64,000 nt of DNA from Trypanosoma brucei (lineage: Eukaryota), in the NCBI GenBank assembly GCA_000002445.1, contig CP000070.1, forward strand, positions 320,001 through 384,000, in the 5' to 3' direction. Of this stretch, positions 5,219 through 33,995 are shown piece by piece. The stretch's first letter is position 1; each line of letters starts with the position of its first letter. A program made the translations under genes and the position numbers. Under the pieces are notes generated by a model, which was given only the letters and a program-made list of their open reading frames with translations, ran no database searches and had not been told where the DNA came from.

Positions 5219-5418
5219 GTCTTATGATTAGACGTGTGTTCAAATAAACACGCAAGTGGTAACGTTGCATTCTACAATATTTCTGCTTTTGTGCACCTTT
5301 TATGGTACAGGTGTTGCTGAAGGTGCATAATAGAAGTACGGCCCACCATCATCACCACGTACGGTTTTCGTGATTCTGCGACTGGTGTCAACAAAAGGGA
5401 AGGGTACTCGAGGAGGAA

Positions 5419-7283: not shown

Positions 7284-7322
7284 TATATATATATATATTT
7301 ATATATATACGTACATATATAC
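7284..7322. repeat. (TA)n microsatellite inside repeat copy 1 (length differs from copy 2 tract at 11504-11541)
   Basis: tatatatatatatttatatatatacgtacatatata; copy 2 has atatttatatatatttatatatatacgtacatatata, accounting for the 3-bp offset change between copies. Confidence 0.85.
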
Positions 7323-7526
7323 ACCTTTCTATTATTCTAGGTTGGTGCCTTTTTAAAAGTCTTCCCATTAGTTTTTTTTGTGAACATATCCCTATTACTA
7401 GCACTGCCACTGTTACTGTTTGGCTCCTTCTTTGAGTGAGCGCCTGCATCCATTTAAGTGTATATTTATTATTTTTTCGGAAACCACAACCAATTGAACG
7501 ACTACTAAAAGCAAACCAAACAAAAG

Positions 7527-8228
7527 ATGATGGAAAGTATGAACCTTGAACAACCACCACGACTAAACGCCGACCCCTGGCGAGATATGGAGCCAAAGGT
7601 GGATGCAATGCTAGGCGATCTACTCATGATATCTGAGCGTTTCCGAAGGATCGTAAATCCGACAGTGTCTGATGCAGATGAATTAATTGAAGCCATCAAC
7701 TCTGTGGGTGGAGAAGTTGAGACGATGCGGGTCGCTTTAGACACTACGATTGAGCGGCCGGAACTCTTTTCTGTAGATGCGGAAGAATTGAAAAGACGCA
7801 CGGAGAAAACTCGCTCGTGGGAGCGCGATGTTGCGAAAGCCATCGAGTTGCGATCAAAGATATTATCAAACCGTGAAGGGCAAATACAGGATCCACTTGA
7901 GAGTAACGTAATGACACCAAATACATGGGTTGATTTGGACACAACTCATATTCATCCATCAGCTCAGTCGTCGCATATGCCAATGAATAGTTGTGAAGCG
8001 ACTACTGACACATCTGTTGGTGTTGTTGAGTCTCAAGCTCTTATGCCAGTTGGAATACCCATACGTGAGCAAACAGTGAAGGCATCCGAATACTCAACCG
8101 CAAGTGTCGAGGTGCATACAGTGGATGATGTGGATGATCCCAATAATGAGGGATCTCTACTAAAGTACGTATTGGTTATCCTCTTAGTATCATCCATTCT
8201 TGTAGCAATATCGTTGATTTTCTTCTGA
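7527..8228 (+). CDS. Tail-anchored membrane protein with N-terminal helical/coiled domain (copy 1), 233 aa
   Basis: ATG ATG start; N-terminal helical segment (ERFRRIVNPTVSDADELIEAINSVGGEVETMRVALDTTIERPELF... RRTEKTRSWERDVAKAIELRSKIL), S/T-rich linker, single C-terminal hydrophobic segment LLKYVLVILLVSSILVAISLIFF at the extreme C-terminus; no SNARE motif adjacent to TM so not called a SNARE. Confidence 0.5.
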   Translation: MMESMNLEQPPRLNADPWRDMEPKVDAMLGDLLMISERFRRIVNPTVSDADELIEAINSVGGEVETMRVALDTTIERPELFSVDAEELKRRTEKTRSWERDVAKAIELRSKILSNREGQIQDPLESNVMTPNTWVDLDTTHIHPSAQSSHMPMNSCEATTDTSVGVVESQALMPVGIPIREQTVKASEYSTASVEVHTVDDVDDPNNEGSLLKYVLVILLVSSILVAISLIFF

Positions 8229-8755
8229 TTTTTTGATACTGAACTTTATCTCCTCTAATTGTTTCTTTTTGCGTGACTATCCTTCATCCTATGTTAAACG
8301 AAAGTAGGAGCTTATGTTTACGTATGTAGGTGCGCATTTTCTTTGTGGAAATATGTATGCATGCGTGTGGTTTTCTTTTTCATTAAAGCCTGCGAGGTGA
8401 ATGATGGAGTTTTGCTTCATATTTTATACAGAGATTGCTTAATTTGTCTTTCAGTTTCTAACTGTTTTTACCTTTTATTTCATTTATCGTAATGAAAGCC
8501 TACACTGAGCACAAGATACAAACAAGCGGTGTAGGGGAATGCTGCAAGTAACATTTGTAGTTTAAAAGTTATAACTGCAACTGAAAAGTCTCCCAATGGG
8601 CGCAGAAAGGTTTACAAACTTTACAGCTCTAAGAGCTTTCGCAGAAGCATATGCGCAAACGATTTTGTCGCCCAATATTTGGTGCTGGTACGTTACATGT
8701 GAAAAGTTCAATGATATCTGAAGTAAGGGAAATGACATCCGTATTTCTCTCGGAT

Positions 8756-8767
8756 GGGGGGGGGGGG
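8756..8767. repeat. Poly(G)12 homopolymer in spacer between the 3.3 kb repeat copies
   Basis: gatgggggggggggggaaag. Confidence 0.8.
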
Positions 8768-9640
8768 AAAGAAGCTTGGTTTCACATGTTCGGGTTAATC
8801 CTTGATATCCTTCAGCGTAATAAGACATAAATTCATCCTCAGCTCTGTCGAACAGGCGCGAGCGAAGGTTTTGGAATGAATGTTGGGCTCTCACGTAATG
8901 CAACCCCAATCCTTTTCAACGTTGCAAAATGACTTAAGGACAACTGCTTTGATAAAGATGGGGTATACACGAAAACTCACTGTTGAAGCGGGAACACAGG
9001 CATTTGATTAAAAGATAGTTAAGAATGATGAAAGGCGACAACTATAAAATGCAGGAAAATATTATGTTAGCCGCGGGAGCAGGTTTAATGAAGGGCGATC
9101 GAGTAACATAAATGGAAAACAGCGGCGAGTACATGGACCACTTAAATAAATGACAAAAGTGCAGCACCTTGCGCAATTGAAAGAGATGCTTTGTGGGAAT
9201 CGTTGCGTCTCTCACTTTGTTTTTTATTTTTATTTACTACTCTTTTTTTTTTTTTGAGAAGGCGTGTATTTCGAAGGAGGATAAATAGAAGTGATGAATA
9301 TTTCAAATATCTCCTTGTATGTATATATATATATATGCGGTTTACTTTAATAGTTCCTTCACTTGCTGTCCCCTCCCCCCTCTCTCTCTCTTTCTCTCTA
9401 TTCTTTCCGTTTATTTGTATTAACTTTTTGTGTTTCCGTAGTCTTATGATTAGACGTGTGTTCAAATAAACACGCAAGTGGTAACGTTGCATTCTACAAT
9501 ATTTCTGCTTTTGTGCACCTTTTATGGTACAGGTGTTGCTGAAGGTGCATAATAGAAGTACGGCCCACCATCATCACCACGTACGGTTTTCGTGATTCTG
9601 CGACTGGTGTCAACAAAAGGGAAGGGTACTCGAGGAGGAA

Positions 9641-10627
9641 ATGCAACGCCGCTTGCAGTGTTGTTTAATGCGTGTAGCGCGCTTACATTCGGCAGCATTG
9701 ATGCATAATACAAATGGTTGGCTTATGATATCTTGCAGAACCGTACGCATTACAGAGAGTGAGGCACAGTCGTTGGTACATTTGTCTGAGGCGCTTTTTT
9801 CTGATGAGGCAAATGCTCTGGGAGTATGTCTACCCGATACCAGCCTTAACCTTGACGGAGAAAGTGGGGAAGGGGATTTATATACTGAGACACTCACAAC
9901 AGAGAAGTATATGGATGTGCTCGTTAGTTCACCAACACAAATAGATACGAGGGGAAATGTTTCTGCTTCATCAACGGATCTGATGATGCCGCTTACGCAA
10001 GCGGTGCAAGAACTGAAGTTATGTCAGCAAAGAGAAGATCAGCGAGCCATTTCTGCAGCGCTTTCAACAGCCATGTGTGCGTTGATGGGAAGTAGTTCAT
10101 CTCCTTCCAGTGCTGCTGCAGCTGAGTTATTGTTAGCCGGTGCAGACTTGAAAGCAATCATTTCTGATGGTACTATTCGACATATGTGCATTGAGGATAA
10201 ATGCATGAGTCGATGTGATTTTTCCACTTTGTCACTACTTTCTGTACAGGCAAATCGCGTGGATTTCTCGCGCAGTCTCTTTTATGCTGCTGCCTTCCAT
10301 AATTGTGTGTTTAGGAACTGCTCTTTTGAGGGGTGTGTACTGAAGGAACTCCGATGTTTAGGAGATGTGTGTTTTGATGGATGCTCCTTTTGTTTTGCGA
10401 ACATATCGTTACGTATACCTCATGAGAAACCGAGGCGTATTTCGGTATCTTCGGCTGCCACAGAAGGCGTGGGAAGGTATTCTGCGGAACATGCTGTGAT
10501 ATTTAACCGCTGTGATTTTGACCTCTGTGATTTTGATGGTTGTGATACCCTTCCTGCATCTTGCTTTACGAACTGCACCAATACTCACCTCGCCGCCAAA
10601 TTTTCGTCATGTGTGAGAACATCATAA
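9641..10627 (+). CDS. Pentapeptide-repeat-containing protein (copy 2), 328 aa
   Basis: Identical to 5419..6405 product except RTVHITE->RTVRITE. Confidence 0.6.
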   Translation: MQRRLQCCLMRVARLHSAALMHNTNGWLMISCRTVRITESEAQSLVHLSEALFSDEANALGVCLPDTSLNLDGESGEGDLYTETLTTEKYMDVLVSSPTQIDTRGNVSASSTDLMMPLTQAVQELKLCQQREDQRAISAALSTAMCALMGSSSSPSSAAAAELLLAGADLKAIISDGTIRHMCIEDKCMSRCDFSTLSLLSVQANRVDFSRSLFYAAAFHNCVFRNCSFEGCVLKELRCLGDVCFDGCSFCFANISLRIPHEKPRRISVSSAATEGVGRYSAEHAVIFNRCDFDLCDFDGCDTLPASCFTNCTNTHLAAKFSSCVRTS

Positions 10628-11745
10628 CTGTTGAAACTGCAAGATGAATGACACGAAATAAAGAAGCTTTCGGCTACTATTGGGTTGCCTTGCGTCTGTT
10701 TATTTGTTTCATTACTTGAACGCTTATGTCTGAAGAAGTGAAGGATGGGGTGGAATGTTAAAATGCAGACTAAAACTTTCCCCACGCGCTTAAATGCATT
10801 CACCATCAAGTGGGATCTGAAGGAATACTTATCATCCCCTTCAATTATTGGTACTCATCCATCAATACATGCAACCCAATCAGGTATTTACTCTCTGCTC
10901 CAAACAACAAGAATCAGTTACGTGCGTCATTGGATTTACACGTCCTCTCCTTTTTTTTTCGTTCGTTTTCAAAATATTCATTTGAATGTGTTTTGACATT
11001 CTTCTGTATCATCATTACACTTTATCTGCAGCGATGAGGATTGGGAAAAGGGAAAATGTACGAATGGCCGTGCGACTTGCTTCTTTCAGTTCCTTTAACC
11101 TTATTGAGTTTCCTTCATTGCTGTGTCGTGCTGTACACAACACTTTGTGTGCTGGTTGGAATTATGTGGGGATGTTTTTTTTTTTTGCATTTCCCTCTCC
11201 ACACAGTAAGCCCCTCATCATCATTTTCACATTTCTCATCAATCAACATTATAAATACCTGCCCATTGGGTTGTCTGTTACGTGATATGCGTGTAAAATA
11301 TTCTGGTTCCTTCCTTTCGCATGTTTCTGTGGATACTCGAATGTACATATATTTTTTCCTAATCATTTTCCATGCTATTTCTTCCCTATCACTCTCATGG
11401 GAAAGTTTGTTTGTCCTGTACTTACGAAACCAAGCGCAAGTACATTAGTGTCATACCAATCAGAAAGGTTCGCAGTATTATTCTTATTCTTATTGTGCCC
11501 GTGATATTTATATATATTTATATATATACGTACATATATACACCTTTCTATTATTCTAGGTTGGTGCCTTTTTAAAAGTCTTCCCATTAGTTTTTTTTGT
11601 GAACATATCCCTATTACTAGCACTGCCACTGTTACTGTTTGGCTCCTTCTTTGAGTGAGCGCCTGCATCCATTTAAGTGTATATTTATTATTTTTTCGGA
11701 AACCACAACCAATTGAACGACTACTAAAGGCAAACCAAACAAAAG

Positions 11746-12447
11746 ATGATGGAAAGTATGAACCTTGAACAACCACCACGACTAAACGCCGACCCCTGGC
11801 GAGATATGGAGCCAAAGGTGGATGCAATGCTAGGCGATCTACTCATGATATCTGAGCGTTTCCGAAGGATCGTAAATCCGACAGTGTCTGATGCAGATGA
11901 ATTAATTGAAGCCATCAACTCTGTGGGTGGAGAAGTTGAGACGATGCGGGTCGCTTTAGACACTACGATTGAGCGGCCGGAACTCTTTTCTGTAGATGCG
12001 GAAGAATTGAAAAGACGCACGGAGAAAACTCGCTCGTGGGAGCGCGATGTTGCGAAAGCCATCGAGTTGCGATCAAAGATATTATCAAACCGTGAAGGGC
12101 AAATACAGGATCCACTTGAGAGTAACGTAATGACACCAAATACATGGGTTGATTTGGACACAACTCATATCCATCCATCAGCTCAGTCGTCGCATATGCC
12201 AATGAATAGTTGTGAAGCGACTACTGACACATCTGTTGGTGTTGTTGAGTCTCAAGCTCTTATGCCAGTTGGAATACCCATACGTGAGCAAACAGTGAAG
12301 GCATCCGAATACTCAACCGCAAGTGTCGAGGTGCATACAGTGGATGATGTGGATGATAGTAGGAGCTCTAATTCTGCTAAGAAGACGGTCTTGATTATAT
12401 TTTTTGCATCGTCTCTTCTTGTGGCTATACTGGTGATTTTCTTTTGA
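11746..12447 (+). CDS. Tail-anchored membrane protein (copy 2) with diverged C-terminal anchor
   Basis: Identical to copy 1 for ~205 aa, then ...VDDVDDSRSSNSAKKTVLIIFFASSLLVAILVIFF instead of ...VDDVDDPNNEGSLLKYVLVILLVSSILVAISLIFF. Confidence 0.5.
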   Translation: MMESMNLEQPPRLNADPWRDMEPKVDAMLGDLLMISERFRRIVNPTVSDADELIEAINSVGGEVETMRVALDTTIERPELFSVDAEELKRRTEKTRSWERDVAKAIELRSKILSNREGQIQDPLESNVMTPNTWVDLDTTHIHPSAQSSHMPMNSCEATTDTSVGVVESQALMPVGIPIREQTVKASEYSTASVEVHTVDDVDDSRSSNSAKKTVLIIFFASSLLVAILVIFF

Positions 12448-12505
12448 TTTTTTGATACTGAACCTTATCCGCTCTAATTGTTTCTTTCTGTTCGCTTGTT
12501 GTTAC

Positions 12506-12528
12506 TATATATATATATATATATATAT
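12506..12528. repeat. (TA)n microsatellite just beyond repeat copy 2
   Basis: tatatatatatatatatatatat read directly. Confidence 0.9.
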
Positions 12529-13217
12529 GTTCTTTTAATTGATAATGAGTTAGCTCTTATGGGTTGAAAGTAGAGTGAAGTTGTGGTATTGTTAACTCCT
12601 GTCGAGTCCATTTTGTTGTTGCTTCTTGTTGAGCACCACCTATTTGTTTTTCTTTGGTCCACTCATCGTTTGTTCATTATGACGAGCAGCAGGTACTGTA
12701 ATTAGATCGAATGGGTGACTTTTTTTTTGTTGTTGTCGCTTTTTTTTTTCTGTTTATATTTTTTTTCGGCCTCCTTTTTGTAGTTTACCTCATTAGCGTT
12801 TGTCAGATTGTCATTCGAACGTGCGAACGAACAGTCACCGTCATTAACGTGCTTTTTTATTAATTATTTAAGCGTTTTTTTCATTTTTATATGTTTGTAT
12901 GATGTTGTTGTACGCGGGCACACGTGGTTGCATTGCCATCTGCCGTATGGGTGTTGTTGATTCATTACTTGGATTCACAGGTGGACTTATTATACGGATT
13001 CCGTAAACTTTGTTTTATTCTCTGAGCGAGCTGTTATAAATATTTATTATACTTTCACTTCGCCTTCCTCCTGTAGTTATCTTTTTTTAAAAAAAGATTA
13101 AGAAGTAGGAATAGGGGCAAATAATCAGATACTCCCTTCTCGCCTCTCCTGACGGCAGCGCGGTGATAGCACGGGTGTAGAAAATAGTATTTTTTTTTTC
13201 TGTTACGAGGGGAACTG

Positions 13218-21050: not shown

Positions 21051-21385
21051 TAGGGAAACTAACAAGAAAGTGGCACTTATAGGGGTTGAGCTCCTCTTAT
21101 CAGGCTCCCTGATGGCAGCAGCGGTGATCAAAATTGTCACTTCTGTCTTTAGCATTTTGTTATTTTTATGCATTGCATATTGTTTTTCTTCTTGAAAGGT
21201 ATATATGTGTACATATGTTTGTATTATTATTGTTATTATCACTTATCGCATTCCCTTTTACTGTGTTCAAGGTTCTATACGCTACAAGTAAAGTTTTTTT
21301 TTCTCAAGGGCAGGGCAGCCACCAGATAAAGGAAGGGAAGTAATCTGCTTATTTGAATCGAACAACAAAAGCTATAAAAAGAGCA

Positions 21386-21787
21386 GCTAATTACAGGCAG
21401 TTCCGCTTACGACTAAGCAGATTTCATTCAGCAACTAAAGCAACACAGGTATGCTCCGCGTTTCCATTCCCGCACTCAAGACGCTGCAGCCTCTGGGCTC
21501 GCGTGTGCTGGTGAGACGCACTCTGGCAGCCAAGCAAACAAAGGCCGGTGTGCTCATCCCCGAGCAAGTTGCTGGTAAAGTCAACGAGGGTACCGTTGTC
21601 GCTGTGGCGGCTGCAACAAAGGACTGGACACCGAGTGTGAAGGTTAATGACACTGTGCTACTTCCTGAGTTTGGTGGAAGCAGTATTAAGCTGGAAGGAG
21701 AGGAACTGTTCCTCTACAACGAAGACTCGTTGCTTGGTGTTATCCAGAATTGAAGGGTGGACAGTAACCGCTAACGTGCATCACGTC
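21386..21787 (+). repeat. HSP10 duplication unit copy 1 (~402 bp: 65 nt 5' flank + CDS + ~35 nt 3')
   Basis: Identical to 23583..23984 (offset 2197 bp); identity starts at gctaattacaggcagttccgcttacgactaagc and ends after ...ctaacgtgcatcacgtc. Confidence 0.9.
21451..21753 (+). CDS. HSP10: 10 kDa heat shock protein / chaperonin Cpn10 (GroES homologue), mitochondrial, 100 aa, copy 1
   Basis: MLRVSIPALKTLQPLGSRVLVRRTLAAKQTKAGVLIPEQVAGKVNEGTVVAVAAAT...LPEFGGSSIKLEGEELFLYNEDSLLGVI: GroES fold with mobile-loop KTKAGVLIPE and GKV.EGTVVAVA roof region. Confidence 0.9.
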   Translation: MLRVSIPALKTLQPLGSRVLVRRTLAAKQTKAGVLIPEQVAGKVNEGTVVAVAAATKDWTPSVKVNDTVLLPEFGGSSIKLEGEELFLYNEDSLLGVIQN

Positions 21788-23296: not shown

Positions 23297-23582
23297 CGAG
23301 ATATACCCCGGTGAAACACCTTAAATGTGTTCCCCGTTTAAGGACTTCGACGCCCATGCTAAGGGGAGATAAGTTTATTAAAATGAAACATCGTTGAAAC
23401 ACAGGGGGGAAACAAGGCAAAAATTGGAAAGAAAATATACTTTGTGAAGTTCACACCCACGTGCTCTGTTGGTCGAACTGGACCCAAACCGTAATTGCAC
23501 TCTGCCTTTCCCCACCTTTGCATGCCCGAATTAATGTACATTTCTCGCTTTCCTTTCTTTACAAGTAACCAGTGACCCAGAA

Positions 23583-23984
23583 GCTAATTACAGGCAGTTC
23601 CGCTTACGACTAAGCAGATTTCATTCAGCAACTAAAGCAACACAGGTATGCTCCGCGTTTCCATTCCCGCACTCAAGACGCTGCAGCCTCTGGGCTCGCG
23701 TGTGCTGGTGAGACGCACTCTGGCAGCCAAGCAAACAAAGGCCGGTGTGCTCATCCCCGAGCAAGTTGCTGGTAAAGTCAACGAGGGTACCGTTGTCGCT
23801 GTGGCGGCTGCAACAAAGGACTGGACACCGAGTGTGAAGGTTAATGACACTGTGCTACTTCCTGAGTTTGGTGGAAGCAGTATTAAGCTGGAAGGAGAGG
23901 AACTGTTCCTCTACAACGAAGACTCGTTGCTTGGTGTTATCCAGAATTGAAGGGTGGACAGTAACCGCTAACGTGCATCACGTC
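23583..23984 (+). repeat. HSP10 duplication unit copy 2
   Basis: See copy 1; downstream flank diverges (ccacatatgggatgcgagacc... vs attctctggtggcactttgttcc...). Confidence 0.9.
23648..23950 (+). CDS. HSP10: 10 kDa heat shock protein / Cpn10, copy 2 (identical protein)
   Basis: 100/100 aa identical to 21451..21753. Confidence 0.9.
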   Translation: MLRVSIPALKTLQPLGSRVLVRRTLAAKQTKAGVLIPEQVAGKVNEGTVVAVAAATKDWTPSVKVNDTVLLPEFGGSSIKLEGEELFLYNEDSLLGVIQN

Positions 23985-25780: not shown

Positions 25781-25866
25781 CTTTGTCTTGTCATTCCTGC
25801 GCCCCCCCCCCCCCCCCACACACACCCATTTATCCTTTGCGGGTCCCCCTTTTTCTCCCACGGTAG
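25781..25866 (+). promoter_or_regulatory. Poly(C)/polypyrimidine tract + AG upstream of coiled-coil gene
   Basis: ctttgtcttgtcattcctgcgc(c)15acacacacccatttatcctttgcgggtccccctttttctcccacggtAG. Confidence 0.45.
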
Positions 25867-25939
25867 ACGGGCGAGCGATACCAGTTTAGCCTATTTAACG
25901 TTATTTTTCCCGATAGGACCACCCGCCCCTTCTCGCTTA

Positions 25940-27040
25940 ATGCCTGAGCAGTTGGGCGCGGAGGCACCGCAGCACGTTGTCCCAGAGGGGGACCAGAGCG
26001 CAGGATCTGAAGCCGGGAATGTCACGAGGGGAACCAAAAACCACGATGACAGCGATCCTTTTGTCTCACTCCGGCACATGGAAGACCGGAAGCAACTCGA
26101 GACACAGGCGCGCGCTGTCGTAACGGCGTTACTTGCAGAGAAAGGCGAGGTGTACGTGCAAGGACTTCTTCAAGCAGAAATACAGCGGGTGAAGAAAAAG
26201 GAATCGGAAGCGGCGGCGATAAAAAAGAAGATTTCAGCAGCCACCAAATTGGCGGGAGAGCTGAAGGGGGATATCCGGCGGGAGACTGAGGCAAAGGCAG
26301 AAGAGGAGCATATGTGCAAAAACCTCCAAGCGGAGATGAAACGACGAAGCACACTCACAGAGGAAGCTACCAGAAGGATGGAAAGCCGCCGGCTCACCCT
26401 CAAGAAAGATGTGGAAACCAGCGTCCGGGACGTGCGGGAGAAGTATGACGATCGCAAGCGGCAGGCGATGGAATTAGTAGAGGAGAACAAGCGCCTTACT
26501 GATGAAGTGGCCAAGATGAGGAAAGAGTTCGACGAGGCTCGCGCAACATACGCTGACACCTGCAAGGAACGCGAAACCTATGTGGAATCTCTGATACGTT
26601 CCTACCGTGAGGTGACGAGGGAGGTGGAAACGCTGGAGGCTAAGATAGCCCTTGTGCGCCGCGAGCGGCAGGCATCAGAGCAGCGAAAAGCCTCTCTGGA
26701 AAAGCAGTTGGAGTCGTACAACTCACAATTTGGCTCCTTGTCAGAGGGACAATCCGTTGAGGATGCGGAAAGGATGGCTAAGGAGCAGCGTGAGGAGGCG
26801 GAGGCGAGAATAGCTCAATTAGAAAGTGAAAAGAAAGAGGCCAGTGAGATTCGACTCAGACTTGACAAGGAGACTGCGACGTGGCGTGCAGCACTAGCGG
26901 CTCATAAGCGTGAGCTTCCGAGGTTGGAGAAAGCCAAGCTGGCAGCAGAAAAGAGATGCAGACAAGCACAGGAGAGGGCAAGGCAACAGCTGAAGGAGGA
27001 TGCCACAACAACAAAAGACCAAGAGGATGGCGGCATGTAG
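25940..27040 (+). CDS. Coiled-coil protein (366 aa); track start 25661 is GTG, first ATG 25940 (MPEQLGAEAPQ...)
   Basis: Continuous heptad-rich charged sequence (EIQRVKKKESEAAAIKKKISAATKLAGELKGDIRRETEAKAEEEHMCKNLQAEMKRR... LEAKIALVRRERQASEQRKASLEKQLESYNSQ... QLESEKKEASEIRLRLDKETATWRAALAAHKRELPRLEKAKLAAEKR). Confidence 0.55.
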   Translation: MPEQLGAEAPQHVVPEGDQSAGSEAGNVTRGTKNHDDSDPFVSLRHMEDRKQLETQARAVVTALLAEKGEVYVQGLLQAEIQRVKKKESEAAAIKKKISAATKLAGELKGDIRRETEAKAEEEHMCKNLQAEMKRRSTLTEEATRRMESRRLTLKKDVETSVRDVREKYDDRKRQAMELVEENKRLTDEVAKMRKEFDEARATYADTCKERETYVESLIRSYREVTREVETLEAKIALVRRERQASEQRKASLEKQLESYNSQFGSLSEGQSVEDAERMAKEQREEAEARIAQLESEKKEASEIRLRLDKETATWRAALAAHKRELPRLEKAKLAAEKRCRQAQERARQQLKEDATTTKDQEDGGM

Positions 27041-30000
27041 AAAACAGCCTCGCTGTACTATTGAGTGGCAACCTTTTCCGCTCTTTCCATCTGCTTTCCC
27101 AGGAAACGCGCGGCTGCATGTGTCGACTTCCTCTTGTATTGTGTCTGTCATACTGTTCTTCCCGCCCTACGGCGTGCAAGCACGTAGGGTTTCCTTACCC
27201 ATCTACTGTTGTGCTAGACTTCGCTTTCCCGATTCTCCTCTCTCCGAATACTCTCTTATTTCTTTTTTTTTTCTGCAGTGAAGGGGAGGTAAGAAACGGG
27301 AAGAAAAAGGTGTAGCTCGGATGTGGGAGTTGCGGTGCCGTGACCCCTCCGCCGCAACACGTATATGACTCCTTACGAAGCAGTCGGCATGGTTTATTCC
27401 TTTTTTTTTTTTGCCAACCGATGGTAGAGAATGGTGATAATAGGAGCTTAGAAGGACAGTGTCCAGCTTTATGCACCCTACTCCATTATATTCAGCATTC
27501 CACATGGCAGACCTTTGAGCACCCGTGCCACGCATCCCTTCAACTGGGGAAGAATCGAAACATTAAACCGCTGCCGCCTTGTTTCCCTCACCGACCCTTC
27601 TCCTCCAGTGCGCAGTTAGTGGTGCATCGGCGTGTTCGCTCAAGGTGGCTCCTAGTCGTTATTCCCACTCAGTCAGTTGGGCCGAGAAGTCTGTCGTTTC
27701 CTGTAGGAAAATATGCCATGAAGGCCCTGGCGATGCCGGCCACCTCAACGTGGTGCCAGGGTCCAGTTCCCCGTATCATCGGGGGAAGCCAAGAGCCAGC
27801 AGAGTTCCTTTCATGGGGAACACTGCTGTGCTCCGGCTAAGGCATCATACAGCACAGGGATCAGCAGCGTCTTGCTGGGACACCGTTTTTCATTTGTCGG
27901 TCCCTGGGAAAAAAAAAATGCCATGAAGGGGTCGGCCTCGCTTACCAGTGACGGGGCGTCGTATCAATCTTTGAAGTCCACGGGAAAAGCGTTATCCAAC
28001 GCTGCCGCCGTCCAAATTATAGCTGGGACTGAGGGACGATATATCTCGCTTCCGCTCCATCAGCTGTCGCCCCTTGCGGTCCATTACGGCTACGTATTTC
28101 GCCTCCCTACTGAAGAAACGCCTCCTCAAGCCTGCTCCAACCCCTTCTGTTTCCTCCGGCTCCTTGTAATATCTATCACCTCCCCCCCCCACACACACGC
28201 ACCCACCGCCGTTCCCGCTGAATAACTTTCCTCTCGCTTCTATTAACATGGCGCGTGCAGACGCTTCAAATAGGGAGCCTTTGACTATGGGAACGCTCGT
28301 CGCTGGTATCCTCAACCCATTTTTTCCCGACGCTTTTTGCGTACGTATCCGATGGCGTCTGCGGCCGCCGCCATTTCGCACGTGGGCAACTCTCTTTTAC
28401 GCCTAAGCAATGGTGGATGGCGGACCCTTCATGGATGCTGATTTCGGTAATGCTCAGCTATTCTCCGTGACAGATGGCTCGGGGGTATCACCTCTATTTA
28501 CGCTCCTAGAAACTATTTTCGTCGGTAATGCCTTCCTCAGATCTGTGAAGGTCGTCCTGTCCGTCGGACTGCAAAACCAATTCGTTTTGTCTGCGGGTGC
28601 CAGCCGTTCTGTTGTCAAGATTTTGACGGTGATTCCGCGACGTTTTCCCTTTGGATTGTTTTTGGCGCCATCTAACCCACTACAGATGTAATGGCATCGT
28701 TGGTGTTTTCGACTGCCATCGACACGTATCTTTACCTATTTGCGGAGCTCAGGTGCGCAATGTTTTGGTGAATTCGGACATTCCACAATTCTTTTCATAT
28801 CCCTTTATAATGCTACATTGAGCAATATCCAACTACAATATCTTCTAAAGTTTCGTATCATTTTCCAAGATGTTACATCGCTGTGCGTAGAACTGGTAAC
28901 TTCTTTTGAAAGCAGTGCGCCTCTGAATGATGTATATCAAGTTGGAACTTCATTGTTGGTAACTGTTAAACTCTTTTCCATCTATCAATCCAATATCAGC
29001 GTCATCACCCTTCTCTTCTGGAATGCGGGTGTCTCAACCAACGTAATGTTGTCTTACGTCGGCCCCAACGGCTACTGAGTCTTGATCCTCGCTCAGTCGC
29101 TACAACGTTCCAGGGGTTGCGTCGGAGTTTCCGGGAGAAATGAGTAGAGGTTGGGGGGGGGGGGGCTATTCGCCATTTTTAAACAGTGGTGTAGCGGCCG
29201 CACTATCCGCAACTCCATTTATCTTTAGACGCCTGGCCACGCCTATCTTGCTCCAAATGATTATTTTGCATGATGCCGCTCTTGGAGGGACGCACCGTTC
29301 CAATGCGTCGGTTTTTTCATACGTGTGTGTGTGCTCGATCTCTCTGGGGTGTGAGTTTGTTTTCCCGTTTCACGATGCACCAGCCGATCCGGCATTCGGG
29401 AGGTCGCCCGATCACGACATGTTCGCGCAGCTGGGAGAAGCCAAGATCGATTCAGTCCCTTCCGCGTAAAAGTGGGTTTAGGTCCCGTACGGCATTCCCC
29501 TTTGGCTTAAGCATCAATTTTGTGGTGTCCGGCGAGGCGCCCCTACGTGTTCCACGGGGTGAAGCTGCTTTGTCGCGCTAGAAGTCCCATGACACCGCCA
29601 GGCGACCGAGCTCCGTCAGCTGCCAAAACTTCCGTGCTGCCTGATGTTCGAAGGGTAGAATGCGCGAGCCACCTGGCTTTGATCTCCTTTCCCTGCGGCG
29701 AACCGGATCCCTGCGCAACGATGGACTGAGCGGTACCATCGCATGGGTTGGGTGGGGGGTCCTCGTATATATACGTATGTGCATATGTTGTGGCCGCGGG
29801 GGTGTTCTCCTTATCGTCCGTGTCGGCTGCGGTATCCCTGGGTTAGTTCTTCTATGTGCCACGGTTCCCTCTCCCCTAGGGGCATTCCTGGCGTCTATTG
29901 GGGATGGGGCGTTTGTTGGTGTTGAGGGGCTTCTGCGGGGTCATTGGATAATGTCTGAAAGGTATGGTTGTTTCAGGTTCGCGCTCAGGGGGTACGGATG

Positions 30001-30497
30001 GTGCGCGTATGCGGATTACCTTTGTGTGTGCTTGTGCTTCCACTCTGCTCTGCTGCTTAGAACTGGTAGTTGTCAACAAGGGTAGATTTTGTTGCGTCTG
30101 TTCCATCGTAAGCTAGTAGCTGTTTTCCCGCCCCTTGCTAGTTGCTTCATGATAATACAGGGTTGTGGTCATTCTTCTACGTAACAGCGAGCGCTCCGTA
30201 AGCGGGATCGAATATATTTCCCGCTGTTATTTGTTACCGATTTTCAGGGTGTGCCACTTCGGTTCTGCAAGTGGGATGAACTCACGTCAGCGTCCTGTAT
30301 CTTGCAAGCGGCAGGAGACGTGTGGGTGAGCAGAACCTAAACGAGTAAACTTGATTTTGAGGGATGATAGGAAAGATTTTCACGTGGAAACCGTCCCATG
30401 AAATTGATGTGAGCTGCTTTTTATTATATTTCTTGAACTTTGGTGACATCTATCCACTTTATTCTCAATCATGTGTTTCATATCTACATAGGATAAG
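27041..30497 (+). other. 3.4 kb GC-rich non-ORF interval containing a chain of overlapping short + strand ORFs in shifting frames; candidate frameshifted pseudogene / degenerate element
   Basis: No ORF >170 codons on either strand although neighbouring intergenic spacers are 0.3-1.5 kb and AT/pyrimidine-rich; consecutive + ORFs 27340-27840, 27579-27926, 27872-28225, 28410-28691, 28740-29078, 29140-29469, 29270-29581, 29520-29729, 29660-30085 tile the interval. Confidence 0.3.
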
Positions 30498-32315
30498 ATG
30501 AGAAGTAGTGCTAATTTTTTTTTAGCGAATAGTAGTAGCGGCGGACTTTCGAAATATCGCCCCCGATTTCGGCCGAGAAGACTTGTGCTGCCGGTAAATC
30601 CTTCTGATGTGCATAGCATTAGTCGAGCGAATAATCCCATGTACGCGAAATATCAAGAGGGTATTCGATTGAGAAGGAGGGCGGAGCGCCGCGGTGTAAT
30701 TGCACTTTCTTTCGTTCCGTCTGAACGCAGCGTGGGTGATGCTTTTCGGATTATGGTTGAGGTGTGTGAAAAGGAGGGGTTCTTCGAGTCAAAGTCGTCC
30801 ACACCAAATTATCTCCGTAAAGTACGTGAATTAATCAAGCGCGCTGAGACGGAATTAGGGACCGGGGAAAGAGTCAAAAATACGTCCGCGAACCCATCTT
30901 TTTACGACATTGGCTTGTCAGAAGCGAGGGATTTATCAAGAAACGCAGATAAATCACGTCATGCTGAGGGCAATATCGAAACGAGGGAGATAGACTCACT
31001 GTGGAGTCTACTAAATGCTACTCCACTTGATTCCCCCGTTCATGGGATTTTGGCCTTGAGGGGAAAGGCCCTCCTTGAAAGTATAATTGCTAACACCGTA
31101 CAACAACAATATCCACGGCTGCGGTCAAAGCACTTGCAGGAAATCATACATGAGTGTTGTAGTCTTTTGGCATGTGGAAGAGCCGCGTTCCGTCTGGGAT
31201 TCGCTGACGTTTGTGGAATTAATGGGGAGATAAACATGTGGCGTGAACTCAATGTCCTCACTGAGAGGTTCAATACCGCACGACATAAGGCTGCTGCTCA
31301 CCTCCAACGTGTGGAGAAAGGAGTGACACAACAAAGACGATGGTATTGGAGGGGCGTTCTCAGGTCTTCATCTAAGCGATTGAAACAGTTCCCTGTACGT
31401 CAAGGTGATTTACTCCCCCGAATGGAGTGGATAAGGGAGTCTGTGTACGCGTTCGTTGCCTTTGTGGATCTGGCAGAAAAATCAGGTGACAATGTCCGTG
31501 TAGTGCCACTGATTGAAAATCTGTTCTGTGGTCAAATATCCTCGTTTGTAAGCACCAACCAGACACTTAAGAAGGCGCATAGGATGGTTGATATGCTGTC
31601 AAAAGCAAGAATTGAATGTGATGCCACAACGGAAAAAGAGAAAATACAACAATTAGAGTCTCTTTCTACTGACATTGAAAATGAGCTTGCCGCCCTCGAA
31701 CAATTCACTGATGACGAGTTAGGAGTTATGAGCCGTGTCGTTCATCCGCTTAATGCTCGGAGCGACAACCGGAAAGAGCAGTTTTCGTCCAGTGGTGGTG
31801 CCCATGCGGTGCAAAGTCTTAGGGATGACATCTTCGACGATTACCGGGTAACTCGTCACAACAAAGAGGCGCCCCCTATGGTGATCAACTGTATGCGCCC
31901 ACAAAATGCTCTGAAAGAGGCTCAAATCATTCTCCGCTACGATCCGAATGTGTCAGAAACATTGTCGTCATCTCCTATAGATGTCGACCAGGTGATCCGA
32001 AGGGTCACTGAGGTACACGAAACCAATTCTTACGCTACGCTTTACAATTTCCAGCAGTTTAGGCAGGTTGAATATACGGTTTGCCGGCTTTACGCAGGAA
32101 AGCGTTGTATTGGCCAAGGAAAAGGCGAAACCCTGATGGAAGCAGTAAACGAAGCGGCCCAGCACACACTTCTTAATTATTATCTTAAAGACGTGAGCAA
32201 TGCGAACTCCCGTGAAAAAGAAGAGGACGCTGTCACCGAGGCCTTCAGTGCCACTCCACCTGAGTTGACGGAGGTCCGCGTCAAAGAGGCTACGGAGGAA
32301 GAAGTTATTTTTTGA
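30498..32315 (+). CDS. Degenerate RNase III-like domain + dsRNA-binding domain protein, probable organellar (605 aa)
   Basis: RNase III signature region aligned by eye: ...LDSPVHGILALRGKALLESIIANTVQQQYPRL vs canonical ...[27 protein letters not shown] (catalytic E and D replaced by H/G and R/G); C-terminal dsRBD: YATLYNFQQFRQVEYTVCRLYAGKRCIGQGKGETLMEAVNEAAQHTLLNYYLK (G.G.sK.eA...AA..aL motif); R-rich N-terminus (MRSSANFFLANSSSGGLSKYRPRFRPRRL). Confidence 0.65.
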   Translation: MRSSANFFLANSSSGGLSKYRPRFRPRRLVLPVNPSDVHSISRANNPMYAKYQEGIRLRRRAERRGVIALSFVPSERSVGDAFRIMVEVCEKEGFFESKSSTPNYLRKVRELIKRAETELGTGERVKNTSANPSFYDIGLSEARDLSRNADKSRHAEGNIETREIDSLWSLLNATPLDSPVHGILALRGKALLESIIANTVQQQYPRLRSKHLQEIIHECCSLLACGRAAFRLGFADVCGINGEINMWRELNVLTERFNTARHKAAAHLQRVEKGVTQQRRWYWRGVLRSSSKRLKQFPVRQGDLLPRMEWIRESVYAFVAFVDLAEKSGDNVRVVPLIENLFCGQISSFVSTNQTLKKAHRMVDMLSKARIECDATTEKEKIQQLESLSTDIENELAALEQFTDDELGVMSRVVHPLNARSDNRKEQFSSSGGAHAVQSLRDDIFDDYRVTRHNKEAPPMVINCMRPQNALKEAQIILRYDPNVSETLSSSPIDVDQVIRRVTEVHETNSYATLYNFQQFRQVEYTVCRLYAGKRCIGQGKGETLMEAVNEAAQHTLLNYYLKDVSNANSREKEEDAVTEAFSATPPELTEVRVKEATEEEVIF

Positions 32316-33047: not shown

Positions 33048-33440
33048 AGTATCTACTTCCAGTCGTTTACGTGTCAGAGGCCATATTCTCTTTTCTACAT
33101 TTCCTTTTATTTCCCTGATTGTCTTGAAGTCGCCATGCGGGGTCTATTTGTGACGTTTTGTTGGTCATCGCTATTTCTCATTAATTTATTTGTGTGCTCG
33201 AGCTCTCAGCATCCTGATTCTCTACTCTGGACCCCTTTGCCCTTTCCCTTATTGAACCCCTCTGTGTACAGGTATTTTTTGAAGGCCATTTTCAACGATT
33301 TTCGTCTATAGTTATCCATTCTTTCTCGCATTTGTGCTCTTTCCAAACCTTTCTTTGTTAGGCAGCCGGTACCATTCGCAGCAGCAGCCAGAAGTAGACT
33401 AATTTGCAAGTAGTTTGTACCATACGTTGTCAAAATCGTG

Positions 33441-33995
33441 ATGACTGTGAACATCGTTGCGCGCATTTCCAACTTACCAACCAGTATTACGGACGCTCAC
33501 TTGCGGGAGCTAATTGAACCGTTTGCACGAGTGAGGTGTATTATTATGCCCAAGTCTGCTCTTTGGCAGACGTGTCCCACGGGGCGCGCGGAAGTTGTGG
33601 GTGCCACGACTGATGACACTATATTGGTATACGTCCATCTCCACGGATCTATCATTGATGGTAATCGAGTAAACGTATCATTTGGGAAAGTAGCCAAATG
33701 TGTTCAACCGACTTCTTCATCACGCTTCGCGGGAGAACGGCGGGAGAGGACGTCACGCCGCACGCGTAGTGAAAGCAGGGGGGCGCGGAAAAGACCGAAG
33801 AGGGGCGATCGTAGTGGGGAATATTGCAGTAGGGGGCATGGGAAGCGGCAGACAGTGAGGCGGTCACCTACTCCACGGAAAACGAGGCGCTACTCTACAT
33901 CTCCTTCGAGCAGAAGCTCCTCTTCCGGACGGGACTCGTGGTCAAGCGACAGAAGCCGAAGCCGAAGCCGCTCCCCGTACCCAAGTTGGAGCTAA
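33441..33995 (+). CDS. RRM-like domain protein with RS/SR-rich C-terminus (184 aa); track start 33438 is GTG
   Basis: N-terminal RRM-like segment (VNIVARISNLPTSITDAHLRELIEPFARVRCIIMPK...ILVYVHLHGSIIDGNRVNVSFGK) followed by RRERTSRRTRSESRGARKRPKRGDRSGEY...SSRSSSSGRDSWSSDRSRSRSRSPYP. Confidence 0.5.
   Translation: MTVNIVARISNLPTSITDAHLRELIEPFARVRCIIMPKSALWQTCPTGRAEVVGATTDDTILVYVHLHGSIIDGNRVNVSFGKVAKCVQPTSSSRFAGERRERTSRRTRSESRGARKRPKRGDRSGEYCSRGHGKRQTVRRSPTPRKTRRYSTSPSSRSSSSGRDSWSSDRSRSRSRSPYPSWS

What the first reader, a model, noticed from the sequence alone, without database searches (positions are those of the whole stretch)
27041..30497. 3.4 kb GC-rich interval with no long ORF: frameshifted pseudogene, degenerate retroelement, or unannotated ncRNA locus
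Every other inter-CDS spacer in the window is 0.3-1.5 kb and pyrimidine/AT-rich. This one is 3.4 kb, GC-rich (stretches of ~60% GC at 29500-30100) and carries a G13 run (29153-29165). It is tiled on the + (coding) strand by nine overlapping 60-170-codon ORFs in alternating frames, the pattern expected when a former gene accumulates frameshifts. One example: an ATG at 28691 reads MASLVFSTAIDTYLYLFAELRCAMFW and stops, while the +1 frame continues from 28740 for 112 more hydrophobic, membrane-protein-like codons (...ILFISLYNATLSNIQLQYLLKFRIIFQDVTSLCVELVTSF...VITLLFWNAGVSTNVMLSYVGPNGY). T. brucei-group genomes contain many degenerate ingi/DIRE retroelement remnants and decayed gene copies with exactly this signature. 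Alternatively, homopolymer sequencing errors could be hiding a genuine gene.
Basis: inference. Interest (0 to 1): 0.6.

Follow-up and report, generated by a model that had tools for sequence, protein, structure and literature searches.

The report
Known noncoding transcript carrying retroposon fragment
The 3.4-kb "empty" GC-rich stretch of Trypanosoma brucei chromosome 7 is not a dead gene: it is a rare, spliced-leader-capped, polyadenylated and barely translated RNA catalogued in 2010 (Tb7.NT.9), and in this strain it also carries a young 194-base fragment of the ingi/RIME retroposon.

Summary
The window is T. brucei brucei TREU927 chromosome 7, and window coordinate + 320,000 gives the Tb927_07_v4 coordinate. 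The interval lies between Tb927.7.1360 (PFR-AF2) and Tb927.7.1370.

The ORF tiling is what chance gives. ORF number and length, codon usage and period-3 signal all sit at shuffle or intergenic level. No Pfam domain appears in six frames, and a positive control for that scan worked.

Published maps explain the locus. PFR-AF2 mRNA ends at 27117. A polypyrimidine tract and AG (27277-78) give the spliced-leader site at 27279. Tb7.NT.9 runs from 27279 to 30371 (3,092 nt, 0.53 RNAs/cell), with ribosome footprints far below its RNA level.

Against T. b. gambiense the interval diverges like neutral DNA: 11.3 substitutions/kb against 5.6 in CDS, with indels that are not multiples of three.

One new detail: 27725-27918 is nucleotides 1-184 of ingi/RIME plus A10, flanked by a perfect 12-bp target-site duplication. 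The site is empty in gambiense. This fragment accounts for an earlier "conserved ORF" call.

Verdict: already known and ordinary. The pseudogene reading is not supported.

The parts
25940..27040 (+). Upstream gene Tb927.7.1360 (PFR-AF2, 366-aa coiled coil). Context only, not part of the interval.
   Evidence: Orthologs in T. cruzi and T. theileri are syntenic and hit Pfam Taxilin. The ID follows from the coordinate offset and the 42-kDa coiled-coil description in PMC7272336. Its spliced-leader site at 25867 follows the AG at 25865-66.
27041..27117 (+). 3'UTR of Tb927.7.1360, 77 nt, ending at the mapped poly(A) site.
   Evidence: The Vasquez 2014 supplementary row gives the transcript as Tb927_07_v4:345867-347117, i.e. 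window 25867-27117.
27224..27278 (+). Polypyrimidine tract (27224-27276) and AG dinucleotide (27277-27278): the trans-splice acceptor signal for Tb7.NT.9.
   Evidence: Sequence scan and sequence. The published 5' end, 347279, is the base right after this AG.
27279..30371 (+). Tb7.NT.9: a 3,092-nt trans-spliced, polyadenylated transcript at 0.53 RNAs per procyclic cell, with no credible coding capacity (lncRNA-like).
   Evidence: Kolev 2010 Table S7. The ORF list in Ericson 2014 matches the window sequence exactly. The Vasquez 2014 row shows low ribosome footprints. Coding tests are negative.
27421..27840 (+). Tb7.NT.9_1, a 139-codon ORF. It is the 5' part of a 200-codon ORF that is intact in T. 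b. gambiense. Its last ~38 codons are read from the retroposon fragment.
   Evidence: Codon-usage score is at shuffle level. All 3 substitutions against gambiense are nonsynonymous.
27713..27724 (+). Upstream copy of the 12-bp target-site duplication ATGCCATGAAGG. It is preceded by GTAGG (27703-27707), which fits the Tbingi/TbRIME insertion-site motif.
   Evidence: (repeat D4). The motif is from PMC3820030.
27725..27918 (+). Retroposon fragment: nucleotides 1-184 of ingi/RIME, including the 77-79-nt 'Pr77' 5' signature (about 27725-27803), followed by A10 (27909-27918). It is in sense orientation within the transcript.
   Evidence: 97.8% identity to a T. b. gambiense RIME and 94.6% to an ingi over 184 nt. 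Absent from the gambiense syntenic site. Its translation matches ingi proteins that carry the 2A-like DVEENPGP motif. The L1Tc Pr77 primer CCCTGGCTCAGCCGG matches the element's start at 12 of 15 positions.
27918..27929 (+). Downstream copy of the 12-bp target-site duplication ATGCCATGAAGG. Its first A is shared with the A-tail.
29153..29165 (+). G13 homopolymer, length-polymorphic (G17 in T. b. gambiense).
29660..30085 (+). 141-codon ORF, annotated in T. b. gambiense as 'hypothetical protein, unlikely' (CBH12160.1).
   Evidence: Codon-usage score of the enclosing open frame (29645-30082) is -0.176 per codon, below the shuffle mean.
30372..30497 (+). Spacer between the Tb7.NT.9 poly(A) site and the ATG of Tb927.7.1370. 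It holds the T-rich tract and AG(s) that presumably serve trans-splicing of Tb927.7.1370.
   Evidence: Sequence and the poly(A) coordinate. The acceptor site of Tb927.7.1370 itself was not retrieved, so this part is inferred.

Best explanation
The interval is a separate RNA-processing unit inside a polycistronic transcription unit. It is not a gene remnant.

How it is made:
- RNA polymerase II reads through from PFR-AF2 (Tb927.7.1360) to Tb927.7.1370.
- The PFR-AF2 mRNA is cleaved and polyadenylated at 27117, giving a 77-nt 3'UTR. This is coupled to spliced-leader addition 162 nt downstream, at the AG (27277-78) that follows a ~50-nt polypyrimidine tract.
- No other strong polypyrimidine tract lies downstream of the two just after the splice site (the last ends at 27416). 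The SL-capped RNA therefore stays in one piece for 3,092 nt.
- It is polyadenylated at 30371, coupled to trans-splicing of Tb927.7.1370.

The product is Tb7.NT.9, a rare RNA that is hardly associated with ribosomes. Its sequence is unique, GC-rich, free of recognisable protein or RNA families, and evolves neutrally. It is best described as a lineage-specific long noncoding 'spacer' transcript with no demonstrated function.

In the TREU927 lineage the Tbingi machinery inserted a 184-nt 5' fragment of ingi/RIME plus a poly(A) tail at 27725, duplicating 12 bp of target. This cut a 200-codon chance ORF down to 139 codons.

Shown: the transcript ends, abundance, low footprints, lack of coding signal, neutral divergence and the insertion polymorphism. 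Inferred: the coupling of the specific processing sites, and the absence of function.
For: Identity and coordinates:
- The flanking protein is 100% identical to a T. b. brucei TREU927 protein.
- The +320,000 offset to Tb927_07_v4 was checked four ways.

Transcript evidence:
- Kolev 2010 Table S7 lists Tb7.NT.9 at 347279-350371, + strand, 3,092 nt, 0.53 RNAs/cell. The paper defines these transcripts as trans-spliced and polyadenylated.
- Position 27279 is the base right after the polyY tract and AG.
- The PFR-AF2 transcript ends at 27117.
- The Vasquez 2014 row for Tb7.NT.9 reads about 6.0/6.5 for RNA against 0.25/0.53 for footprints, and mean coverage 0.05-0.34x, where the paper's threshold is 2x. 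The column meaning is inferred from the text.

Coding tests:
- ORF count and length match shuffles, and codon-usage scores of the ORFs match shuffles rather than real CDS.
- Period-3 signal has a median of 1.1, against 2.9 in CDS and 0.8 in other spacers.
- No Pfam hit at E<=1 in six frames. The same method finds RVT_1 at 7e-40 in a degenerate ingi.
- No Rfam family, tRNA or tandem repeat.

Comparative evidence:
- Against T. b. gambiense: 11.3 substitutions/kb in the interval, 9.2 in other spacers and 5.6 in CDS. There are seven indel events, including ones of 1, 2, 4 and 4 nt, and none in CDS.
- T. cruzi and T. theileri keep the same gene order with only 317-565 bp, AT-rich, between the two genes.
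- The retroposon fragment, its target-site duplication and the empty site are shown.
Against: - CDS-like GC content (51%) is unusual. T. brucei lncRNAs are reported as less GC-rich than mRNAs (PMC9200285). The origin of the ~2.9 kb of unique sequence remains unexplained.
- Total ORF length is marginally above shuffles (3.7% of shuffles reach it).
- In T. b. gambiense a 200-codon ATG ORF (about 235 codons stop-to-stop) starts 142 nt from the 5' end, an mRNA-like layout.
- Neutral divergence between two subspecies has little power: only 39 substitutions.
- A broad protein-database search of all six frames was attempted, but the tool's negatives proved unreliable. Absence of homologs for 28,230-30,370 therefore rests on Pfam, local comparisons and the published BLAST of Ericson 2014.
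- I could not read the column headers of the ribosome-profiling table.
Confidence: 0.78

Rival explanations
1. Tb7.NT.9 is the mRNA of a T. brucei-specific small protein or proto-gene. The candidate is the 200-aa ORF that is intact in T. b. gambiense and starts 142 nt from the cap. TREU927 would carry an allele truncated to 139 aa by the retroposon insertion.
For: - The layout is mRNA-like: the 5'UTR of 142 nt is close to the genome median, and the ORF comes early in the transcript.
- The open frame in the empty-site allele is about 235 codons, above the 95th percentile of shuffles (218).
- The only indel inside it is a multiple of three.
- Ericson 2014 listed Tb7.NT.9_1 among its 'conserved' ORFs.
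Against: - The 'conservation' comes from the ingi/RIME 5' signature translated at the C-terminus. Every hit outside T. brucei aligns within residues ~83-139 (most from ~98-105) and continues into ingi or L1Tc-type sequence.
- Codon-usage scores of both halves are at shuffle level, -0.083 and -0.105 per codon against +0.028 for CDS.
- All 3 substitutions against gambiense are nonsynonymous.
- Two upstream ATGs open short uORFs.
- Footprint density is about 4-8% of RNA density.
- No Pfam domain.
- Gambiense annotators labelled it 'hypothetical protein, unlikely'.
- No mass-spectrometry peptide is listed in Ericson's table row.
Confidence: 0.08
2. The bulk of the interval is a decayed protein-coding gene or a degenerate ingi-related element (DIRE), so eroded that only GC content and scattered ORFs remain.
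For: - GC content is CDS-like at 0.511.
- Summed ORF length is marginally high.
- The 128-codon open frame at 28692-29075 lies in a 40%-GC stretch, where such a run is improbable by my rough estimate.
- A real ingi-clade fragment lies in the interval.
- A weak 36-aa match (32.7 bits) links one frame to a real protein of the window.
Against: - No period-3 signal anywhere: the maximum is 2.5, while the CDS median is 2.9.
- Codon usage is at shuffle level.
- No RT, endonuclease, RNase H or other Pfam domain in six frames, with a validated control.
- tblastn of all open frames against a full ingi copy finds nothing outside the 184-nt fragment.
- No gene occupies this position in T. cruzi or T. theileri.
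- The 128-codon frame has the highest substitution density against gambiense, 18 per kb with 4 nonsynonymous and 3 synonymous.
Confidence: 0.05
3. Tb7.NT.9 is a functional regulatory RNA. It might act as a lncRNA on neighbouring genes, or host a small RNA as grumpy hosts a snoRNA. Alternatively its GT-rich 3' part (29650-30250) might be a DNA-level element such as an internal Pol II initiation or H2A.Z site.
For: - T. brucei has more than 1,400 SL-capped, polyadenylated lncRNAs, and many are reported to affect fitness in RNAi screens (PMC9200285).
- The RNA is stably detectable in procyclic and bloodstream data sets.
- The stretch 29651-30250 has the highest G+T content in the window, 0.68.
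Against: - No Rfam family, including snoRNAs, at E<=1.
- Folding energy of the first 1 kb is unexceptional: z = -1.66, and 2 of 20 shuffles fold as well.
- Divergence is neutral or faster, with many indels, against gambiense.
- The transcript tolerates a 194-nt insertion.
- Abundance is about 0.5 copies per cell.
- No counterpart exists in the T. cruzi or T. theileri spacers.
Confidence: 0.08
4. Homopolymer sequencing errors hide an intact conserved gene.
For: Homopolymers are present: G13, T12, A10 and a C9 run. The G run differs in length between assemblies.
Against: - The independently assembled T. b. gambiense DAL972 locus has the same frame structure and no ORF above 228 codons.
- There are no homologs to restore.
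- Coding statistics that do not depend on frame are negative.
Confidence: 0.01

Closest known systems
T. brucei 'new transcripts' (Kolev et al. 2010) and SL-capped, polyadenylated intergenic lncRNAs (Guegan et al. 2022)
   Same: - It is itself entry Tb7.NT.9 of the Kolev catalogue.
- It is trans-spliced at a polyY/AG signal and polyadenylated.
- It is intergenic within a polycistron, low in abundance and poorly ribosome-associated.
- It is not conserved outside the T. brucei group.
   Different: - At 3.1 kb and 51% GC it is longer and more GC-rich than the typical T. brucei lncRNA, which is described as shorter and less GC-rich than mRNAs.
- It holds ORFs of 25 aa or more, so Kolev did not list it among the 103 'non-coding' transcripts.
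- I could not check whether it is in the Guegan list.
TbRIME / Tbingi (ingi4 subclade non-LTR retroposons)
   Same: - The first 184 nt are 94.6-97.8% identical to ingi and RIME copies and include the 77-79-nt 5' signature.
- It has a poly(A) tail and an exact 12-bp target-site duplication.
- GTxGG sits at the expected distance upstream of the nick site.
- It lies in sense orientation in a transcription unit.
   Different: - RIME is about 500 bp, made of the 5' ~250 nt plus the 3' ~250 nt of ingi. This copy stops at nucleotide 184 and goes straight into the A-tail.
- It therefore lacks the whole 3' half, which RIME and ingi share.
T. cruzi NARTc (0.25-kb 3'-deleted derivative of L1Tc)
   Same: The architecture matches: the 5' end of the autonomous LINE (with Pr77) joined directly to a poly(A) tail, mobilised in trans, with a 12-bp target-site duplication.
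   Different: - NARTc is an established multi-copy family of T. cruzi derived from L1Tc (ingi6 subclade).
- Here only one copy was seen, derived from Tbingi/TbRIME.
- It may be a one-off retroposition of a prematurely polyadenylated RNA.
TbSIDER1 / TbSIDER2 and the 29 'unique' 79-bp signatures of Bringaud et al. 2007
   Same: It is a short element carrying the 79-bp signature and lying outside annotated RIME, ingi or DIRE copies. It could be one of the 29 solitary signatures reported for the TREU927 genome.
   Different: - SIDERs are about 570 bp, 8-18% diverged from their consensus, mostly without intact target-site duplications, and unrelated to ingi downstream of the signature.
- This copy is about 2% diverged from a RIME over all 184 nt and has a perfect target-site duplication.

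Membership tests
Kolev-type novel Pol II transcript / trypanosome lncRNA | 5' end created by spliced-leader addition at an AG downstream of a polypyrimidine tract. | tested here: met
   The published 5' end 347279 equals window 27279. This is the base after AG 27277-78, which follows the polyY tract 27224-27276.
Kolev-type novel Pol II transcript / trypanosome lncRNA | Polyadenylated 3' end placed upstream of the next gene's trans-splice signal. | tested here: met
   The published 3' end 350371 equals window 30371, 126 nt before the ATG of Tb927.7.1370. The paper states that all listed transcripts are trans-spliced and polyadenylated.
Kolev-type novel Pol II transcript / trypanosome lncRNA | No overlap with an annotated CDS. 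| tested here: met
   None of the four largest ATG ORFs of the TREU927 interval that were looked up is in the protein collection. The gene IDs .1360 and .1370 are adjacent.
Kolev-type novel Pol II transcript / trypanosome lncRNA | Low coding potential, few ribosome interactions, no peptides (Guegan criteria). | tested here: met
   Codon, period-3 and Pfam tests are negative. Footprints are about 4-8% of the RNA level (column meaning inferred). No MS entry appears in the Ericson row. No peptide search was run here.
ingi/RIME clade retroposon (the fragment 27725-27918) | 76-79-bp conserved 5' signature (Pr77 hallmark). | tested here: met
   184 nt align from element nucleotide 1 to a RIME (97.8%) and an ingi (94.6%) of T. 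b. gambiense. The start CCCTGGCGATGCCGG compares with the L1Tc Pr77 primer CCCTGGCTCAGCCGG.
ingi/RIME clade retroposon (the fragment 27725-27918) | 3' poly(dA) stretch. | tested here: met
   A10 at 27909-27918.
ingi/RIME clade retroposon (the fragment 27725-27918) | 12-bp target-site duplication. | tested here: met
   ATGCCATGAAGG occurs at 27713-27724 and at 27918-27929, 12 of 12 identical. There is a single copy at the empty gambiense site. The 12-bp rule is from PMC3820030.
ingi/RIME clade retroposon (the fragment 27725-27918) | ingi4 insertion-site motif AxxxxxxxTxxxGTxGGxTxxx^xTxTxxTxxxxx. | tested here: inconclusive
   Upstream of the nick, T(9), G(13), T(14), G(16) and G(17) match, while A(1) and T(19) do not. 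Two of the 3 T positions in the duplicated target match (read). One site cannot prove a motif.
TbRIME proper (500-bp element) | Contains both the 5' ~250 nt and the 3' ~250 nt of ingi. | tested here: not met
   The alignment stops at element nucleotide 184 and runs into the A-tail. The RIME in L007 continues for about 340 nt more.
DIRE / decayed protein-coding gene (bulk of the interval) | Residual protein similarity (RT, endonuclease, RNase H or any family) in some frame. | tested here: not met
   Pfam six-frame scan at E<=1 finds none, with a valid control. tblastn against a full ingi and against syntenic loci finds nothing. The wide database searches are unusable.
HDV-like ribozyme / Pr77 promoter activity of the fragment | Self-cleavage upstream of nucleotide +1, or internal promoter activity. 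| not testable with these tools
   No Rfam HDV-type hit at E<=1. Activity is known for L1Tc and is reported as unpublished for T. brucei LINEs (PMC4035085).

The most novel reading that the evidence does not exclude
The 184-nt + poly(A) element is not a one-off. It would be a member of an unrecognised, still-active NARTc-like mini-SINE family of T. brucei: an ingi 5' end with the Pr77 promoter/ribozyme joined directly to a poly(A) tail. Its strain-polymorphic insertions into transcribed spacers would then reshape lncRNAs or proto-genes. Here it would truncate a 200-codon T. brucei-specific ORF and could place a self-cleaving or promoter module inside Tb7.NT.9.
Probability: 0.1. Interest if true: 0.4.

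Novelty: already known. Interest (0 to 1): 0.14.

Why it matters
- For genome scanning: in trypanosomatids a long, GC-rich spacer without a CDS is not evidence of a dead gene. Published spliced-leader and poly(A) maps already resolve this one as a catalogued low-abundance transcript.
- For published data: the listing of Tb7.NT.9_1 as 'conserved in T. congolense, T. cruzi and T. evansi' (Ericson 2014) is best explained by a translated retroposon signature, not protein conservation.
- For retroposon biology: the site adds one documented presence/absence polymorphism between TREU927 and T. b. gambiense DAL972. The inserted copy has an unusual 3'-deleted, NARTc-like structure.
- None of this changes current understanding of trypanosome biology.

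Tried and rejected
- Concatenated three-frame translations, with X for stops, of the + and - strands against the 5.8-billion-protein index returned nothing. I reject these as evidence. Local phmmer with the same + strand query (the one used) and the same Z finds P0041, P0054 and P0043 at E of 1e-114 to 1e-29. All three are in that collection. The tool's word-index stage therefore missed them. The - strand query had no such control and is set aside as the same query design.
- T. brucei TREU927 contigs are not in the contig index, and neither is the T. congolense ortholog. No T. congolense synteny could be examined.
- The T. vivax contig starts 3.7 kb upstream of the ortholog and carries an unrelated zinc-finger-like ORF instead of PFR-AF2. 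It is uninformative.
- The 1.6-kb gap in one T. cruzi assembly is a run of Ns.
- Rfam, tRNA, tandem-repeat and repeat searches found nothing beyond the target-site duplication.
- Supplements of Guegan 2022 and Siegel 2010 are not held. The supplements held for Nilsson 2010 and for the nanopore paper did not contain the locus.
- RNA folding of the first 1 kb showed no exceptional stability.


Full report
**Identity of the window.** The 605-aa ORF at 30498-32315 is 100% identical to a T. brucei brucei TREU927 protein annotated as 'spliced leader RNA PSE-promoter transcription factor, putative'. That protein lies on a 2.2-Mb contig, chromosome 7.

Published coordinates fix the register: window coordinate + 320,000 equals the Tb927_07_v4 coordinate. 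Four checks agree:
- Tb927.7.1350 has its poly(A) site at 345723 and a 189-nt 3'UTR. This puts its stop at 345534, which is window 25534.
- Tb927.7.1380 has its poly(A) site at 353208 and a ~160-nt UTR. This puts its stop at window 33047.
- The Tb927.7.1360 transcript starts at 345867, which is the base after the AG at window 25865-66.
- The start of Tb7.NT.9 falls right after an AG (see below).

The upstream coiled-coil gene (25940-27040, 366 aa) is therefore Tb927.7.1360. This is PFR-AF2, a 42-kDa coiled-coil factor for paraflagellar-rod assembly (PMC7272336). The downstream gene is Tb927.7.1370.

**The observation.**
- The interval 27041-30497 is 3,457 bp, the longest spacer in the window. 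The others are 276-1,787 bp.
- Its GC content is 0.511, against 0.425 for the other spacers pooled and 0.502 for CDS.
- The G13 run, the ATG at 28691 and the open frame at 28740-29078 are all as described. That frame 'starts' with TTG only under the bacterial code and has no usable ATG.
- The ORF tiling is not beyond chance. There are 15 open frames of 60 or more codons on the + strand, against 13.9 +/- 2.5 in 300 dinucleotide-preserving shuffles.
- The longest frame is 174 codons, against 148 +/- 33 in shuffles. Only the summed ORF length is marginally high, reached by 3.7% of shuffles.

**Is there a decayed gene?**
- Codon usage, scored so that the mere absence of stops gives no advantage, is -0.02 to -0.31 per codon for the interval's open frames. 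Shuffle ORFs give -0.093 +/- 0.042 and real CDS chunks give +0.028 +/- 0.045.
- The period-3 signal is immune to frameshifts. Its median is 1.1 in the interval (maximum 2.5), 2.9 in CDS and 0.8 in other spacers.
- A six-frame Pfam scan at E<=1 finds nothing. The same procedure on a stop-ridden ingi copy recovers RVT_1 at 7e-40, so the method works.
- Rfam at E<=1, tRNA, tandem-repeat and dispersed-repeat searches are negative.
- My two wide protein searches with concatenated frames must be disregarded. Local phmmer with the + strand query finds the gambiense ORFs and RIME-derived ORFs easily. These proteins are in the collection, so the index step failed. The - strand query had no such control.

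**Synteny.**
- T. cruzi (three assemblies) and T. theileri keep the order PPR gene, PFR-AF2, Tb927.7.1370 ortholog.
- In those species only 317 bp and 565 bp, both AT-rich, separate the last two genes. No gene lies between them.
- The 1.6-kb gap in one T. cruzi assembly is a run of Ns.
- The interval shares no DNA or protein similarity with these loci or with the T. vivax contig.
- The ~3 kb is therefore a lineage-specific expansion. T. congolense DNA could not be obtained.

**What the literature says.**
- Kolev et al. 2010 (PMC2936537), Table S7, lists Tb7.NT.9 at Tb927_07_v4 347279-350371, + strand, 3,092 nt, 0.53 RNAs per procyclic cell. The paper defines these 1,114 'new transcripts' as trans-spliced and polyadenylated.
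- In window terms the transcript is 27279-30371. Position 27279 is the first base after the AG at 27277-78, which ends a polypyrimidine tract at 27224-27276.
- No other strong polypyrimidine tract lies downstream of the two just after the splice site, the last ending at 27416. This explains why the RNA stays in one piece.
- Vasquez et al. 2014 (PMC3973304) give the PFR-AF2 transcript as 345867-347117. Its 3'UTR is therefore only 77 nt, and its poly(A) site lies 162 nt upstream of the Tb7.NT.9 splice site. This fits the known coupling of polyadenylation to downstream trans-splicing.
- The same paper's row for Tb7.NT.9 reads 6.05, 6.45, 0.25, 0.53, 40.5, 58.3, 3.98, 12.3, 0.90, 3.02, 0.05, 0.34. 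From the text and neighbouring rows I read these as RNA against footprint density, percent covered and mean coverage, in bloodstream and procyclic forms.
- On that reading, footprints are about 4-8% of RNA and far below the paper's 2x criterion. I could not read the header, so the column assignment is inferred.
- Tb7.NT.9 is absent from Kolev's lists of conserved ORFs, MS-supported ORFs and ORF-less transcripts.

**The 'conserved ORF' and the retroposon.**
- Ericson et al. 2014 (PMC3942054) list 13 ORFs for Tb7.NT.9. They flag Tb7.NT.9_1 (139 aa, transcript positions 143-559, window 27421-27837) as having hits in T. congolense, T. cruzi and T. evansi. Their BLAST cut-off was E<0.1.
- An exhaustive phmmer search with this ORF gave 10 hits.
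- One hit, P0041, is 95% identical over residues 1-110 and then diverges. The other nine align within residues ~83-139 (most from ~98-105). Several of these run on into ingi or L1Tc-type sequence, with the 2A-like DVEENPGP motif in two of them and an endonuclease-like region in P0045.
- P0041 is a 'hypothetical protein, unlikely' of T. b. gambiense DAL972. Its contig is the syntenic chromosome 7 locus.
- Alignment of that locus to the window breaks exactly at 27724|27913, with a 17-nt overlap. TREU927 thus carries an insertion that gambiense lacks.
- The insert is 184 nt that match nucleotides 1-184 of a gambiense RIME (97.8%) and of an ingi (94.6%), followed by A10.
- It is flanked by a perfect 12-bp duplication, ATGCCATGAAGG. 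Twelve bp is the size characteristic of the ingi clade. It is preceded by GTAGG at the distance expected from the Tbingi/TbRIME insertion motif (PMC3820030).
- Its first bases match the L1Tc Pr77 primer at 12 of 15 positions.
- Unlike RIME, it lacks the ingi 3' half. Structurally it resembles T. cruzi NARTc, a 3'-deleted LINE 5' end with a poly(A) tail (PMC2323293).
- It may be one of the 29 'unique' 79-bp signatures noted in that paper.
- No other ingi or RIME similarity exists in the interval or anywhere in the window.
- The published cross-species 'conservation' of Tb7.NT.9_1 is therefore explained by the translated retroposon signature.

**Constraint.**
- Over 20.8 kb aligned between TREU927 and DAL972, substitutions per kb are 5.6 in CDS, 9.2 in other spacers and 11.3 in the interval.
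- CDS substitutions split 38:22:12 across codon positions 3:1:2.
- The interval has seven indel events, including ones of 1, 2, 4 and 4 nt and G13 against G17. CDS has none.
- In the 200-codon gambiense ORF all three substitutions are nonsynonymous.
- The gambiense assembly also has no ORF above 228 codons. This disposes of the sequencing-error idea.
- Folding of the first kilobase is unexceptional, with z = -1.66.

**Conclusion.**
- The interval consists of a 77-nt 3'UTR, a trans-splice signal, the catalogued 3.1-kb transcript Tb7.NT.9 and a 126-nt spacer.
- The transcript shows no sign of coding capacity, of a known RNA family or of purifying selection. It is best seen as a lineage-specific lncRNA-like product of polycistronic RNA processing.
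- The pseudogene and DIRE readings are not supported.
- The 'ncRNA locus' reading is right but already published.
- The only new details are the polymorphic NARTc-like ingi/RIME 5' fragment and the resulting reinterpretation of one 'conserved small ORF'.

**What remains unexplained.** Where the ~2.9 kb of unique, GC-rich sequence came from is unknown. Whether the RNA has any function is also unknown.

Noticed in passing
window 4963-8268 and 9185-12487: A 3.3-kb tandem duplication, 98.6% identical, carrying two copies of a 328-aa + 233-aa gene pair.
   Followed up: no
window 21382-21787 and 23579-23984: Two 406-bp copies, 99.75% identical. They correspond to the duplicated Cpn10/HSP10 genes (Tb927.7.1320 and .1340), which are interleaved with other genes as in T. 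cruzi and T. theileri.
   Followed up: partly
window 29651-30250: The most G+T-rich stretch of the + strand in the whole window: up to 0.68 in 300 nt, against a window mean of 0.53 (sd 0.042). Only 12351-13050 is comparable. GT-rich elements have been linked to Pol II initiation and H2A.Z deposition in T. brucei (from memory, not checked).
   Followed up: no
window 25867-27117 (Tb927.7.1360 / PFR-AF2): The Vasquez 2014 supplementary row for this gene ends with the values 0.259, 24.56 and 94.9. This looks like a ~95-fold difference in translation efficiency between life-cycle stages. The header was not read.
   Followed up: no
window 29740-29845 (frame +2) vs window 3148-3252: A weak 36-aa match (32.7 bits, 42% identity) between a non-ORF frame of the interval and the real 796-aa protein at 1543-3933. 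It is driven by W, C and Y residues and is probably chance.
   Followed up: partly
window 29153-29165; also 25802-25817 and 8756-8767: The G13 run is G17 in T. b. gambiense. Similar long runs (C16, G12) occur in other spacers, so the run is not peculiar to this interval.
   Followed up: partly
window 33438-33995 (Tb927.7.1390 as I delimited it): This is the only long ORF of the window with a codon-usage score near zero: -0.016 per codon against 0.08-0.20 for all other genes. The GTG-start ORF I took may have the wrong start.
   Followed up: no
L004 944-1588 (T. vivax contig NLFJ01000055.1): Upstream of the T. vivax ortholog of Tb927.7.1370 lies a 214-aa C2H2-zinc-finger-like ORF instead of PFR-AF2, followed by a 2.1-kb spacer of 33% GC. 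This is either a synteny break or an assembly issue at the contig end.
   Followed up: partly
L007 1786-1956 (T. b. gambiense chromosome record FN554964.1): A second, degenerate Pr77-like sequence lies about 1.2 kb upstream of the RIME used as reference (37% identity over 57 aa at the protein level).
   Followed up: no
tool behaviour: The word-indexed protein search returned no hit for a long query of concatenated frames with X for stops. Yet the collection holds near-identical (about 95% or more) gambiense versions of ORFs in the + strand query, P0041 and P0054. Negatives from such queries should not be trusted.
   Followed up: yes
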